This document shows positions 1 to 3,000 of a DNA stretch of 64,000 nt, in pieces. Position numbers: made by a program. The stretch's first letter is position 1, and each line of letters starts with the position of its first letter. Where the stretch lies: assembly GCF_057098645.1 (NCBI RefSeq), contig NZ_CM169472.1. One strand, given 5' to 3'.

Positions 1-3000
1 CCGAAGGCTCCAGCGGCCAGGTTTCCAGTTTCCTTGATGGCGGTAACCCGTTCCGCTTCTGGCTGCTGGAAATCTTCAACGGCAATATCATCGCCATTGG
101 TCTGGTGCCGGTTATCGCCCTGGTGCTGTATGGCATTTTCCGAATGACGCGGAGCACGGTTTATGCCTGATAACAGCGCAGCTATCGTTATCGATATTGG
201 CACCACCAATTGCAAAGTCACCTGCTTTTCCTGCCTGGACGCAACGACGTTGGGCGCGCATAAATTCGTGACGGCAAAGCAGATCTCCCCACAGGGCGAT
301 GTCGATTTCGATATCGACGCCCTCTGGCAGGAGGTCCGCCAGGCGATAGCGCAACTGAACGCCGCTTCGCCGCTGCCAGTCAGACGGATCAGCATTGCCA
401 GTTTTGGCGAATCAGGCGTGTTCCTTGACGAGCATGGCGAGATCCTGACGCCAATGCTGGCATGGTATGACCGTCGCGGTGAAGAGTATCTGGCAACGCT
501 TAGCGAGGCAGACAGTGCGGCACTTTATGACATCTGCGGTCTACCACTACACAGCAATTACTCTGCCTTCAAAATACGCTGGTTGCTGGAACATTACCCG
601 CTGCGTAATCGCCGCGGCCTGCGCTGGCTACATGCGCCGGAAGTGCTGCTCTGGCGGCTGACTGGCGAACAGCGCACGGATATCACCTTAGCCAGCCGCA
701 CGCTGTGTCTGGACGTGCGCAAAGGCGAATGGTCAGCGAAAGCGGCGGCGTTGTTACACGTTCCCTGTACGGCATTTGCGCCATTGGTGCAGCCAGGCGA
801 GCACGCCGGATGGGTCAGCGAGTCACTTTGCAAGACACTTGGGTTCTCGCAACCGGTCAGCGTGACGCTGGCCGGACATGACCATATGGTGGGTGCGCGA
901 GCGTTGCAGATGATGCCAGGCGATATCCTTAACTCGACGGGGACCACGGAAGGCATTCTGCAACTGGATACACAACCGACGCTGGATGAACAGGCTAAGC
1001 GTGACAAGCTGGCAAACGGCTGTTACTCACTTGCCAACCAGTTCACCCTGTTTGCGTCGCTGCCCGTGGGCGGTTTCGCGCTGGAGTGGCTGCGCAACAC
1101 GTTCCGGCTAACCGATGAGGAGATCGCCGCATCACTTACTCGCGGACATGCTGATTATCTGGCGGGGAATTGGTTGCTCGATGACATTCCCGTCTTTATT
1201 CCACATCTTCGCGGTTCGGGTTCGCCCTATAAAAATCGCCATACCCGTGGATTATTTTATGGGCTTGGCGATACGTTAAGTATCGACATGTTAATTGCCA
1301 GCGTATCACTGGGATTAACCATTGAATTTGCCAACTGCTTCGCCTGTTTTAACGTGCCTGGCACCAGCGCGTTAAAAGTGATCGGTCCGGCAACCCATAA
1401 TCCTCTTTGGCTGCAATTAAAGGCGGATATTTTACAGCGTCCGGTTGAAGCAATTGCATTTAACGAGGCGGTTTCTGTCGGAGCATTATTAACCGCCGCA
1501 CCGGATATTCCACCGCCGCCAGTCGCTATAGCCCAACGTTTGTTACCGAATCGGGCGAGATACCATCAATTACAGCGTTATCAGCACAAATGGAAAAGCT
1601 GGTATCAGTTGAAATTACAACAAGAAGGCGTGATGCCATTACATCATCGGGAGGAACACTATGTTGAATAAAACCGTGGAGGTCAGAAACAGTACTGGCC
1701 TGCATGCACGTCCGGCGGCCTGTCTGGCGAAAGCCGCCAAAAAATATAGCTGTAAAGTGACGCTGCACTATGAGGGTAATGATATTAATGCCACCAGCAT
1801 GATGAATATTATGCGCGCCGGAATAAAAGGCGGAAAAACGGTGGAAATACGCTGCGACGGTGATGATGAAAACGAGGCAATACAGACTCTCACCGACTTA
1901 TTTCGCGACCGCTTCGGTGAAGATGAATAATTAACTGATATTAAAAGATGAGGTTTTCAATATGCCATTAGTTAATGGACGGATACTGCTCGACCGCATT
2001 CAGGAAAAACGGGTATTAGCGGGCGCATTTAATACCACCAATCTGGAGACGACAATTTCAATTTTAAACGCTATTGAGCGTTCGGGATTACCCAACTTCA
2101 TTCAGATTGCGCCAACCAATGCACAACTGTCGGGATACGATTACATATATGAAATCGTGAAACGTCACGCCGATAAAATGGATGTTCCGGTCAGTCTTCA
2201 TCTGGATCACGGGAAAACCCAGGAGGATGTTAAACAGGCGGTGCGCGCGGGCTTTACCTCGGTCATGATTGACGGTGCCGCATTCTCTTTTGAAGAGAAT
2301 ATCGCTTTCACCCAGGAAGCTGTCGATTTCTGTAAATCCTATGGCGTACCGGTTGAAGCGGAGCTGGGGGCGATTCTCGGCAAAGAAGATGATCACGTCA
2401 GCGAAGCCGATTGCAAAACGGAACCGGAAAAGGTGAAGACCTTTGTCGAGCGTACCGGTTGCGACATGCTGGCAGTTTCTATTGGCAACGTTCATGGCCT
2501 GGACGATATACCGCGTATCGATATCCCCCTGCTGAAGCGCATTGCCGAAGTCTGTCCGGTGCCGTTGGTTATTCACGGCGGCTCCGGTATCGCCCCGGAG
2601 ATATTACGCAGCTTTGTTAATTATCGCGTCGCTAAAGTAAATATCGCCAGCGATCTGCGCAAAGCGTTTATCACCGCCGTCGGCAAAGCGTATGTGAATA
2701 ATCACAACGAGGCGAATCTGGCACGAGTCATGGCATCAGCAAAAAACGCCGTTGAGGAAGATGTGTATAGCAAAATCCTGATGATGAATGAGGGGCATCG
2801 GTTGGTTAGAAAGGCATCTTAAGAGCCACAAAAATATAGCGGCGCAACAGAAATTGTTGGGCCGCTATAAGTTATAAATGATTCAAACGCTCATTCAGTG
2901 TTTCAATAATATAGGTATTAACAGAGACTTGTTGCTGCGCAGCCGCATTATTAAGGCGTTCACTCAGCGATTCTGGATAGCGTAACGTAAAGGTCTTAAT

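What the first reader, a model, noticed from the sequence alone, without database searches (positions are those of the whole stretch)
1..2822. Non-K-12 sugar catabolic module: transporter tail, FGGY kinase, HPr paralog, class II aldolase
Four co-directional genes with overlapping or near-contiguous boundaries (stop/start overlap at 163-170; 11 nt overlap at 1661-1671) form one probable operon. I recall no such cluster in K-12, where H-repeat/rhs-associated genes flank yhhJ instead. Kinase plus ketose-bisphosphate aldolase implies phosphorylation of a phospho-sugar followed by aldol cleavage, as in the tagatose/galactitol route, but with an FGGY kinase instead of the usual PfkB-type. The substrate cannot be inferred from sequence alone. 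The kinase also has an unusual ~50 aa basic, proline-containing C-terminal tail (DIPPPPVAIAQRLLPNRARYHQLQRYQHKWKSWYQLKLQQEG).
Basis: partly seen in the sequence, partly recalled or inferred. Interest (0 to 1): 0.5.

Follow-up and report, generated by a model that had tools for sequence, protein, structure and literature searches.

The report
Orphan PTS–kinase–aldolase sugar operon
This is the downstream half of a seven-gene sugar-uptake and breakdown operon found in about 30% of complete E. coli genomes, with a counterpart in Salmonella; its sugar is still unknown, but comparison across about 80 species indicates that the sugar is phosphorylated twice and then split in two.

Summary
Window 1-2822 carries the end of a galactitol-family PTS EIIC gene, an FGGY kinase (163-1671), an HPr paralog (1661-1930) and a class II aldolase (1962-2822), with the stated 8-nt and 11-nt overlaps. 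These genes are the 3' part of a seven-gene operon (GntR regulator, EIIA, EIIB, EIIC, kinase, HPr, aldolase) lying between nikR and yhhJ. The operon is ECs4349-ECs4355 in O157 Sakai and has the same gene content as Salmonella STM3779-3785, which the literature describes only as an island for an unknown carbohydrate. It occurs in 1637 of 5426 complete E. coli genomes; K-12 has rhsB there instead.

In 86 related loci this kinase subfamily sits next to the aldolase in 85. It is accompanied either by a Gat-family PTS (74 loci) or, in all 12 loci without that PTS, by a second, xylulokinase-like kinase.

The "unusual tail" is not unusual: it is the conserved C-terminal strand and helix of FGGY kinases. 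D-tagatose is unlikely to be the substrate, on published Nissle 1917 deletion data. D-psicose is a testable candidate. This is a known but uncharacterised cluster and a new variant of a familiar pathway, of moderate interest.

The parts
1..170 (+). 3' end (last 55 codons plus stop) of the PTS EIIC gene, galactitol (Gat) family. The rest of the gene, plus EIIB, EIIA and the GntR/UTRA regulator, lies upstream of the window.
   Evidence: Translation of frame 3. RefSeq annotation of the identical O145 genome shows IIC ending 8 nt into the kinase gene. The full protein matches PF03611 EIIC-GAT with E 1.1e-91.
163..1671 (+). FGGY-family carbohydrate kinase, 502 aa, belonging to a distinct subfamily (catalytic motif AGHDHMVGA). 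Inferred to add the second phosphate to the PTS product.
   Evidence: FGGY_N and FGGY_C domains. No NCBIfam equivalog model is passed; the best is XylB at 144 bits against a cut-off of 380. AF2 model pLDDT 90. Foldseek TM 0.80-0.84 to glycerol and xylulose kinases over the full length. Asp240 is invariant. The gene sits next to the aldolase in 85 of 86 loci.
1661..1930 (+). HPr-family phosphocarrier paralog, 89 aa, with His15, Arg17 and Ser46. Inferred to be a dedicated phosphoryl donor for the operon's EIIA.
   Evidence: PF00381 E 3e-29. TIGR01003 103 bits against a cut-off of 47.9; closer to the PRK13780 HPr model (77.7 bits) than to the enteric PtsH model (50.6 bits). Present in 37 of 74 PTS-type loci and 0 of 12 non-PTS loci.
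1962..2822 (+). Class II (zinc, PF01116) ketose-phosphate aldolase, 286 aa. Inferred to cleave the bisphosphate into DHAP plus an aldose phosphate.
   Evidence: PF01116 E 3.2e-81. Passes NF005943 'class II aldolase' (557 bits, cut-off 364) but not the GatY, KbaY or FBA models. Aligns end to end with AgaY (1gvf), with the HLDH, GNVHG and IHGGSG motifs conserved. An Arg or Lys occupies the AgaY Arg257 position in all six cluster aldolases.
2806..3575 (-). Not part of the operon: a 770-bp hicB-hicA toxin-antitoxin cassette inserted at the operon's 3' end. It rewrites the last codons of the aldolase gene and brings a hairpin (2835-2869).
   Evidence: Comparison with UTI89, which has a 117-bp REP-containing spacer at this position. 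HicB and HicA Pfam hits. Hairpin dG -22.9 kcal/mol, z -5.7.

Best explanation
The four genes are the downstream half of a seven-gene, GntR/UTRA-regulated operon for uptake and breakdown of a ketose, a sugar that needs no prior oxidation or isomerisation. Step 1: a galactitol-family PTS (EIIA, EIIB, EIIC), fed by general Enzyme I through the operon's own HPr paralog, imports the sugar and phosphorylates one terminal hydroxyl. Step 2: the FGGY kinase, translationally coupled to EIIC, phosphorylates the other end, most likely C1 next to the keto group, giving a ketose bisphosphate. Step 3: the class II aldolase cleaves this into dihydroxyacetone phosphate plus an aldose phosphate (glyceraldehyde 3-phosphate if the sugar is a hexulose), both of which enter glycolysis. 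Shown here: gene content, domain integrity, catalytic residues, purifying selection, and the cross-phylum linkage of this kinase subfamily with the aldolase and with either a Gat-family PTS or a second kinase. Inferred: the order of the steps, which carbon each enzyme phosphorylates, and the substrate. D-tagatose is unlikely; D-psicose (allulose) is the first candidate to test.
For: Operon anatomy and intact domains and active-site residues.

Across 86 loci from about 80 species, the aldolase is adjacent in 85; the one exception is cut off by the end of the contig. A Gat-family PTS is present in 74. All 12 loci without that PTS carry an adjacent second FGGY kinase instead (Fisher p 6e-13, not corrected for phylogeny); where scanned, that kinase is XylB-like (305 bits to the XylB model).

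The same kinase-aldolase pair is also coupled to a Man-family PTS in Enterococcus raffinosus.

Variants with one or more Zn-dependent dehydrogenases, some of which score best against the galactitol-1-phosphate dehydrogenase (GatD) model, mimic the gat pathway with the FGGY kinase in the place of the phosphoketose kinase.

The E. coli type has no dehydrogenase or isomerase, so the substrate must itself be a ketose.

The EIIC and kinase genes overlap in 6 of 7 PTS-type loci that have gene calls.

The kinase shares the H-D motif and the FG-x-x-G and SxGT motifs with FucK and RhaB, which phosphorylate C1 of 2-ketoses; XylB and GlpK lack them. That FucK and RhaB act on C1 is established knowledge.

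The aldolase keeps a basic residue at the position of AgaY Arg257, which I recall as the distal-phosphate ligand.

All seven genes are under purifying selection between O145 and UTI89 (dN/dS 0.01-0.33), with dS similar to the flanking core genes.

HPr paralogs occur only in PTS-type loci: 37 of 74 against 0 of 12.
Against: No biochemical or genetic test exists in the literature I could search.

I know of no FGGY kinase shown to act on an already phosphorylated sugar.

The complementarity between PTS and second kinase shows that two phosphorylations occur. It does not show that both precede cleavage.

The kinase evolves much faster (37-38% identity between E. coli and Enterococcus or Listeria) than EIIC (77-78%) or the aldolase (68-70%). 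This is unexplained.

The co-occurrence statistics are not phylogenetically corrected, and the gene labels rest on BLASTP against my own small reference set.

The role assigned to AgaY Arg257 comes from memory of the 1gvf paper and was not checked here.
Confidence: 0.6

Rival explanations
1. A route like liver fructose metabolism. The PTS makes a ketose 1-phosphate, the aldolase cleaves this monophosphate into DHAP plus a free aldehyde such as glyceraldehyde, and the FGGY kinase phosphorylates that small product in the way a triokinase does.
For: This also requires exactly two phosphorylations and one aldolase, so it fits the complementarity between PTS and second kinase. The nearest solved structures and several of the best profile hits are glycerol kinases, and E. 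coli GlpK is known to accept L-glyceraldehyde and dihydroxyacetone (own knowledge). PF01116 members such as IolJ and YdjI cleave monophosphorylated substrates (own knowledge; YdjI is among the hits).
Against: The kinase lacks the GlpK Arg83 equivalent (FGESG against QRETT) and carries FucK/RhaB-like motifs. The aldolase keeps a basic residue at the presumed distal-phosphate site. A kinase for a common triose would be expected to be well conserved, yet this is the fastest-evolving enzyme of the cluster. Gat-family PTSs phosphorylate a terminal hydroxyl remote from the future keto group in the galactitol paradigm (established knowledge).
Confidence: 0.2
2. The HPr paralog is mainly a regulatory partner of the FGGY kinase, as in the LsrK-HPr complex or the HPr-dependent phosphorylation of Firmicute glycerol kinase, rather than a PTS phosphocarrier. 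This could hold in addition to the main model.
For: The kinase and HPr genes overlap by 11 nt in E. coli. Kinase, EIIA and HPr all evolve faster than the rest of the cluster. There are precedents for FGGY-HPr interaction (own knowledge).
Against: HPr is absent from all 12 non-PTS loci and from most Firmicute loci that have the kinase, and is present only where a PTS is present (37 of 74 against 0 of 12, p 9e-4). The gene order kinase-HPr is lineage-specific; Salmonella has kinase-aldolase-HPr. His15 and Arg17 are intact, as expected for a working phosphocarrier.
Confidence: 0.1
3. The operon is a silent or decaying remnant with no current function in E. coli.
For: The Salmonella counterpart is reported to be an AT-rich island under H-NS repression. 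The E. coli operon has lower GC (0.41-0.56 in most 400-nt windows, with one at 0.61) than the flanking nik genes (0.56-0.62). No phenotype is on record.
Against: All seven reading frames are intact in 1635 genomes at 80% coverage or more. dN/dS is 0.01-0.33, with dS similar to neighbouring core genes. The active-site residues are intact. A conserved operator-like palindrome lies upstream of the regulator gene in nine enterobacterial genera. STM3780-85 was detected as expressed only in permissive chicken caecal communities.
Confidence: 0.05

Closest known systems
Salmonella enterica subsp. I island STM3779-STM3785
   Same: The same seven gene families (GntR/UTRA, EIIA, EIIB, EIIC-GAT, FGGY kinase, class II aldolase, HPr). 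Identity to the E. coli proteins is 83, 62, 84, 89, 63, 89 and 48% respectively. The upstream operator-like palindrome is nearly identical.
   Different: The gene order at the 3' end differs (kinase-aldolase-HPr), as does the chromosomal site (next to uhp). The literature describes it only as needed for 'unknown carbohydrate utilization' or 'unknown sugars', H-NS-repressed, with STM3784 activated by ArcA.
E. coli galactitol pathway gatYZABCD
   Same: A Gat-family PTS delivers a phosphorylated substrate, a second phosphorylation gives a ketohexose 1,6-bisphosphate, and a PF01116 class II aldolase cleaves it (established knowledge; summarised in PMC9720028).
   Different: The operon has no GatD dehydrogenase and no GatZ partner. 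The second kinase is a dedicated FGGY enzyme rather than PfkA. The aldolase falls below the NCBIfam cut-offs for GatY and KbaY. EIIC scores 476 bits against a cut-off of 542 for the galactitol model.
D-tagatose pathways: tagKTH plus gatYZ (Klebsiella oxytoca, Salmonella, Bacillus licheniformis) and the ABC-type tag cluster of E. coli Nissle 1917
   Same: A ketose is taken up, phosphorylated twice and cleaved by a class II aldolase (PMC9720028).
   Different: Those systems use a fructose-type PTS with a dedicated tagatose-1-phosphate kinase (TagK; PfkB-type from memory), or an ABC transporter with a sugar kinase and PfkA. None uses an FGGY kinase. Nissle carries the present operon, yet it neither grows on nor consumes D-tagatose once the ABC-type cluster is deleted.
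L-fucose and L-rhamnose pathways (FucK/FucA, RhaB/RhaD)
   Same: An FGGY kinase phosphorylates C1 of a 2-ketose, and the product is cleaved to DHAP plus an aldehyde. The kinase motifs (H-D at the catalytic base, FG-x-x-G, SxGT) are shared.
   Different: Identity is only 20-23%. Their aldolases belong to a different family (PF00596). Their substrates are 6-deoxy sugars that are phosphorylated once, and no PTS is involved.
frz operon of extraintestinal pathogenic E. coli (recalled from memory; not checked here)
   Same: An accessory E. coli operon that combines a PTS, a sugar kinase and class II ketose-bisphosphate aldolases, with no known substrate.
   Different: As I recall it, frz has a fructose-family PTS, a ROK-family kinase, an MgA-type activator, two aldolases and a cupin, at another locus.

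Membership tests
FGGY carbohydrate kinase family | Both the FGGY_N and FGGY_C domains are present | tested here: met
   PF00370 E 1.4e-44 (residues 7-245) and PF02782 E 3.7e-23 (residues 257-446).
FGGY carbohydrate kinase family | Two-domain sugar-kinase fold including the C-terminal strand and helix | tested here: met
   AF2 model pLDDT 90, with a strand at 456-460 and a helix at 464-487. Foldseek TM 0.80-0.84 to glycerol and xylulose kinases over about 500 aligned columns.
FGGY carbohydrate kinase family | Catalytic aspartate and the N-terminal DxGT(T/S) phosphate-binding motif | tested here: met
   Asp11 and Asp240 are invariant, and Gly13 nearly so, in an alignment with FucK, RhaB, XylB and GlpK.
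Characterised FGGY specificities (XylB, GlpK, FucK, RhaB, GntK, LsrK, AraB) | Score above the curated NCBIfam equivalog cut-off | tested here: not met
   Best scores: XylB 144 (cut-off 380), GlpK 126 (590), FucK 119 (471), RhaB 58 (528), LsrK 45 (528).
HPr phosphocarrier family | Full-length PTS-HPr domain with His15 and Arg17 | tested here: met
   PF00381 covers residues 3-82 of 89. TIGR01003 scores 103 bits against a cut-off of 47.9. The motif GLHARPA places His at position 15 (sequence).
HPr phosphocarrier family | Accepts phosphate from Enzyme I and passes it to an EIIA | not testable with these tools
   Only indirect: paralogs are found in PTS-type loci only (37 of 74 against 0 of 12).
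Class II (PF01116) ketose-bisphosphate aldolases | Domain plus the zinc-ligand histidines and the Asp-His catalytic pair | tested here: met
   PF01116 E 3.2e-81. HLDH, GNVHG and IHGGSG align with AgaY Asp82/His83, His180 and His208 and are invariant in six cluster aldolases.
Tagatose-bisphosphate aldolases GatY/KbaY | Equivalog-level similarity and a GatZ/KbaZ partner subunit encoded nearby | tested here: not met
   GatY 240 bits (cut-off 383), KbaY 183 bits (cut-off 542). No GatZ/KbaZ-like gene is present in the operon.
PTS galactitol (Gat) family | EIIC-GAT permease with separate EIIB (Cys site) and EIIA (His site) | tested here: met
   PF03611 E 1.1e-91, PF02302 and PF00359. EIIB has the motif VCATGIATS and EIIA has AIPHTD. 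The galactitol-specific model TIGR00827 scores 476 bits, below its cut-off of 542, so family membership is met but galactitol specificity is not.
gat / D-tagatose catabolic operons | D-tagatose or galactitol as the growth substrate | tested here: not met
   This is literature evidence, not my own experiment. Nissle 1917 carries the operon, but its ABC-type tag-cluster deletion mutant neither grows on nor consumes D-tagatose (PMC9720028). The operon has no GatD.
Orthologue of Salmonella STM3779-3785 | The same set of seven gene families in one co-directional cluster, with high identity | tested here: met
   The locus-tag assignment was checked against the flanking uhp genes and published descriptions.

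The most novel reading that the evidence does not exclude
This FGGY subfamily is a ketose-phosphate kinase, which to my knowledge would make it the first FGGY enzyme acting on an already phosphorylated sugar. Together with its dedicated class II aldolase it forms a portable 'lower pathway' cassette that evolution has attached to three different front ends: a Gat-family PTS, a Man-family PTS, or a permease plus a XylB-like kinase, with or without polyol dehydrogenases. In E. coli and Salmonella it would give access to a still-unidentified dietary or host ketose; D-psicose (allulose) is the first candidate.
Probability: 0.45. Interest if true: 0.55.

Novelty: new variant of a known kind. Interest (0 to 1): 0.4.

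Why it matters
The operon is carried by major pathogen lineages (O157:H7, O145:H28, ST131, UTI89), by the probiotic Nissle 1917, and in orthologous form by Salmonella enterica subspecies I. Yet its sugar is unknown, and genome annotations label its genes by guesswork ('L-fuculokinase', 'gatY'). Identifying the substrate would fill a gap in models of nutrient competition in the gut. It could also bear on how rare-sugar sweeteners affect Enterobacteriaceae. On the enzymology side it would extend the FGGY family to phosphosugar substrates and define a widespread cross-phylum cassette. If the mechanism proposed here is wrong, what remains is an ordinary orphan PTS operon.

Tried and rejected
(1) The 'unusual basic, proline-rich tail' is rejected. 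It aligns with the XylB C-terminus and with every subfamily member, and it is modelled as a confident strand plus helix.

(2) D-tagatose as the substrate is rejected on published Nissle deletion data.

(3) Identity with two named loci is rejected. The Nissle tag cluster is an ABC transporter system at accC-yhdT. The Klebsiella pneumoniae psicose locus consists of a permease, a ribokinase-type kinase and AlsE. Both have different gene content.

(4) I asked whether the kinase co-varies with EIIC, which would show that it recognises the sugar skeleton. The result is inconclusive: the kinase is uniformly 34-44% identical outside the close enterobacterial group, whatever the cluster type.

(5) HPr as a partner of the kinase is disfavoured by its distribution.

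(6) Consensus scans for promoters and terminators gave no more sites than shuffled sequence.

They returned only incidental mentions and no functional study. The FGGY family review does not mention PTS-linked members.

(8) A Salmonella phenotype-array paper that I wanted to consult for D-psicose was not held in the library.

(9) Unlabelled ORFs in the high-GC actinobacterial loci could not be called reliably with my simple ORF finder.
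Full report
**Source and anatomy**

The window is 100% identical over its first 3600 bases to chromosomes of E. coli O145:H28.

- Frame 3 of bases 1-170 encodes the last 55 residues of a permease, with its stop codon at 168-170.
- 163-1671 encodes a 502-aa protein.
- 1661-1930 encodes an 89-aa protein.
- 1962-2822 encodes a 286-aa protein.

The overlaps are 8 nt (ATGCCTGA) and 11 nt (ATGTTGAATAA). 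Pfam assigns FGGY_N plus FGGY_C, PTS-HPr and F_bP_aldolase to the three complete proteins.

The RefSeq annotation of the identical genome shows that the window starts inside an operon. Upstream lie a GntR/UTRA regulator, a PTS EIIA, an EIIB and the rest of a 452-aa EIIC-GAT permease, all co-directional and tightly spaced, directly after nikR. EIIB has the VCATGIATS cysteine motif and EIIA the AIPHTD histidine motif. HPr has His15, Arg17 and Ser46. Downstream lie hicB-hicA and yhhJ on the opposite strand.

**Distribution**

The complete 5.75-kb operon is present at 80% coverage or more in 1635 complete E. coli genomes, and matches 1637 of 5426 in all. It is always chromosomal and nearly always single-copy. 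Carriers include O157:H7, O145:H28, UTI89, ST131 and Nissle 1917. In O157 Sakai it is ECs4349-ECs4355, where the kinase is annotated 'fucK' and the aldolase 'gatY'.

Between O145 and the B2 strain UTI89, all seven genes show dN/dS of 0.01-0.33. Their dS values (0.05-0.18) resemble those of the flanking nikE, nikR and yhhJ. The operon in Citrobacter amalonaticus and two other Escherichia species is preceded by five ORFs of nikABCDE-like lengths, which were not annotated here. This pattern fits an old, vertically inherited and functional cluster that was lost or replaced in lineages such as K-12. It does not look like a recent island.

The hicBA genes are a separate 770-bp insertion (window 2806-3575). 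It occurs in 581 genomes and replaces a 117-bp REP-containing spacer. The insertion changes the aldolase C-terminus from ...GHRLGK to ...GHRLVRKAS.

**Family assignments**

- *Kinase.* It passes no NCBIfam equivalog cut-off: XylB 144 bits against 380, GlpK 126 against 590, FucK 119 against 471. It therefore belongs to an uncharacterised FGGY subfamily.
- *Aldolase.* It passes its own generic model (NF005943 'class II aldolase', 557 bits against 364) but not the GatY, KbaY or FBA models. It aligns end to end with AgaY (1gvf), with the zinc-ligand and Asp-His motifs intact.
- *HPr paralog.* It scores higher against the PRK13780 HPr model than against the enteric PtsH model.

**The 'unusual tail'**

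This claim does not hold.

- In a 19-member alignment spanning Enterobacterales, Firmicutes and a non-PTS member, the region is aligned throughout. Pro462 is invariant and Lys484 nearly so. Protein lengths are 480-512 aa in all members.
- Alongside E. coli FucK, RhaB, XylB and GlpK, Pro462 is again invariant. The sequence LLPNRARYHQLQRYQHKWKSWYQL lines up with XylB HLPDAQRYAAYQPRRETFRRLYQQ.
- The AlphaFold model (pLDDT 90) shows a strand at 456-460 and a helix at 464-487 with pLDDT 83-95. Only residues 488-502 are disordered.
- The whole chain superposes on glycerol and xylulose kinases with TM 0.80-0.84.
- The last ~9 residues are specific to the Escherichia/Citrobacter lineage. They coincide with the lineage-specific overlap with the HPr gene.

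**Comparative genomics**

Neighbourhoods of nine homologues and a scan of one genome per species gave 86 non-redundant loci. I labelled their genes by BLASTP against a reference set taken from loci with Pfam-annotated gene calls.

- The class II aldolase is adjacent in 85 loci. The single exception is truncated by the end of the contig.
- A Gat-family PTS is present in 74 loci.
- All 12 loci without that PTS carry an adjacent second FGGY kinase instead. The one scanned scored 305 bits to the XylB model.
- Only two PTS loci have such a kinase nearby, and in both it is on the other strand. Fisher p is 6e-13, not corrected for phylogeny.
- In Enterococcus raffinosus, and by matching gene layout in E. 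avium and E. malodoratus, a second cassette joins the same kinase subfamily and aldolase to a Man-family PTS and a Zn-dependent dehydrogenase. The Pfam check was run on E. raffinosus only.
- 31 loci add one or more Zn-dependent dehydrogenases. Some of these score best against the galactitol-1-phosphate dehydrogenase model.
- The E. coli type has no dehydrogenase or isomerase. It recurs in Enterococcus, Listeria, Selenomonadales and Coriobacteriia.
- EIIC is 72-78% identical, and the aldolase 49-70% identical, between E. coli and the Firmicute versions (Enterococcus, Listeria, Pectinatus, Selenomonas). This suggests horizontal transfer of a cassette that handles the same substrate.
- The EIIC and kinase genes overlap in six of the seven PTS-type loci that have gene calls.
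- HPr paralogs occur in 37 of 74 PTS loci and in none of the 12 non-PTS loci (p 9e-4). This ties the paralog to the PTS rather than to the kinase.

**Mechanism**

Taken together, these facts show that the kinase-aldolase pair needs a partner that supplies one phosphorylation. That partner can be a PTS or a second kinase. When the substrate is a polyol, a dehydrogenase is added, as in the galactitol pathway.

The most economical reading has four steps. The sugar is taken up and phosphorylated at one end by the PTS. The FGGY kinase phosphorylates the other end. The aldolase cleaves the resulting ketose bisphosphate. The products are DHAP plus an aldose phosphate.

Two sequence observations suggest that the FGGY kinase acts at C1. 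First, its catalytic motif is AGHDHMVGA, which resembles FucK (AGHDTQ) and RhaB (ASHDTA), the known ketose 1-kinases. XylB and the second actinobacterial kinase have GGGDNA, and GlpK has AGDQQA. Second, it shares the FG-x-x-G and SxGT motifs with FucK and RhaB.

The aldolase keeps an Arg or Lys at the position of AgaY Arg257. I recall this residue as the ligand of the distal phosphate.

The order of the steps and the carbon positions are inferences. A route like liver fructose metabolism (cleavage of a 1-phosphate, then phosphorylation of the free aldehyde) fits the co-occurrence data equally well. It is disfavoured only by the sequence arguments above.

**Regulation**

This was seen in passing and lies outside the window. 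A palindrome-containing element, AAGTTGTCCATGATTGTCCATAGACAACT, sits about 20 nt upstream of the regulator's start codon. It is nearly identical in nine enterobacterial genera, and related TGTACA/TGTATATAGAC repeats occur in the Firmicute versions. It is a plausible operator for the HutC-type GntR regulator.

**Literature**

The Salmonella counterpart, STM3779-3785, has the same seven gene families. It is described as:

- an AT-rich, H-NS-repressed island gained by subspecies I 'needed for unknown carbohydrate utilization' (PMC3604774);
- 'unknown sugars' genes, detected as expressed only in permissive chicken caecal communities (PMC11000858);
- containing an ArcA-activated putative sugar phosphotransferase, STM3784 (PMC3075218).

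No functional study of the E. coli genes was found. No paper was found that links an FGGY kinase, an EIIC and an aldolase. The library lacks most subscription journals, so a published assignment cannot be excluded.

**Substrate leads**

- Nissle 1917 carries this operon. Its mutant lacking the unrelated ABC-type tag cluster neither grows on nor consumes D-tagatose (PMC9720028). D-tagatose is therefore unlikely to be the substrate.
- Twelve carbon sources are used by Nissle but not by K-12 (PMC7924626). Among the ketoses on that list, L-sorbose is assigned to a locus in the same paper and D-tagatose was later assigned to the tag cluster. D-psicose is left without an assigned locus.
- K-12 derivatives do not grow on D-allulose (PMC12216980).

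This is only a correlation, but it makes D-psicose the first sugar to test. The Klebsiella pneumoniae psicose locus has unrelated gene content (PMC6020474).

**Verdict**

The cluster is a known but uncharacterised accessory operon. Its logic is a variant of the galactitol/tagatose scheme, with an FGGY kinase as the second kinase. What is new here is the family-level evidence for that scheme and the exclusion of D-tagatose.

Interest is moderate. A specialist would not be surprised by an orphan PTS operon. Still, the prediction of an FGGY phosphoketose kinase and the presence of the operon in major pathogens make it a worthwhile and directly testable target.

Noticed in passing
window 2806-3575: A 770-bp hicB-hicA toxin-antitoxin cassette replaces the 117-bp REP-containing spacer seen in UTI89. 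The left junction lies inside the last codons of the aldolase gene, changing ...GHRLGK* to ...GHRLVRKAS*. 581 genomes match 80% or more of window 1-3600, which spans hicBA, against 1637 with the operon.
   Followed up: partly
window 2835-2869: A strong hairpin (dG -22.9 kcal/mol, z -5.7) lies between the convergent aldolase and hicB genes. It is followed by a U-run only on the minus strand, so it is probably the hicAB terminator brought in by the insertion.
   Followed up: partly
L001 9163-9192 (about 2.8 kb upstream of window base 1, outside the window): An operator-like element, AAGTTGTCCATGATTGTCCATAGACAACT, lies just upstream of the GntR regulator gene. It is nearly identical in nine enterobacterial genera, and related TGTACA/TGTATATAGAC repeats occur in the Listeria, Mitsuokella and Selenomonas versions.
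   Followed up: partly
window 163-1930 and L001 9984-10457: The kinase, EIIA and HPr evolve much faster than EIIC and the aldolase. Between E. coli and Salmonella the identities are 63, 62 and 48% against 89 and 89%. Between E. coli and Enterococcus the kinase is 38% identical against EIIC at 77%. Within E. coli, dN/dS is 0.31 for EIIA and 0.33 for HPr against 0.01-0.02 for the aldolase and EIIC. This is unexplained; co-evolving contacts among these three proteins are one possibility.
   Followed up: no
L040 10896-19440 (Enterococcus raffinosus; the same layout in L041 and L043): Immediately downstream of the Gat-PTS cassette lies a second one: a class II aldolase, a PRD/Mga regulator, a Man-family PTS (EIIA-man, IIB-sorb, IIC, IID), a Zn-dependent dehydrogenase and another kinase of the same FGGY subfamily.
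   Followed up: partly
L008 12692-13471; also L047, L055, L056, L059, L084, L090, L091: The dehydrogenase-containing enterobacterial variants (Erwinia, Pantoea, Raoultella, Enterobacter) also carry a gene for a SurE-like phosphatase or nucleotidase. That is an odd member for a catabolic sugar operon.
   Followed up: no
L089 12047-13390; L072 12111-13490: Some Microbacteriaceae loci have a third, divergent FGGY kinase (26-27% identical to the subfamily) after the XylB-like one.
   Followed up: no
window 3576-4784: The longest ORF for yhhJ starts at a GTG (402 aa) and overlaps rbbA by 85 nt. RefSeq annotates a shorter, 374-aa product starting at window 4700.
   Followed up: no
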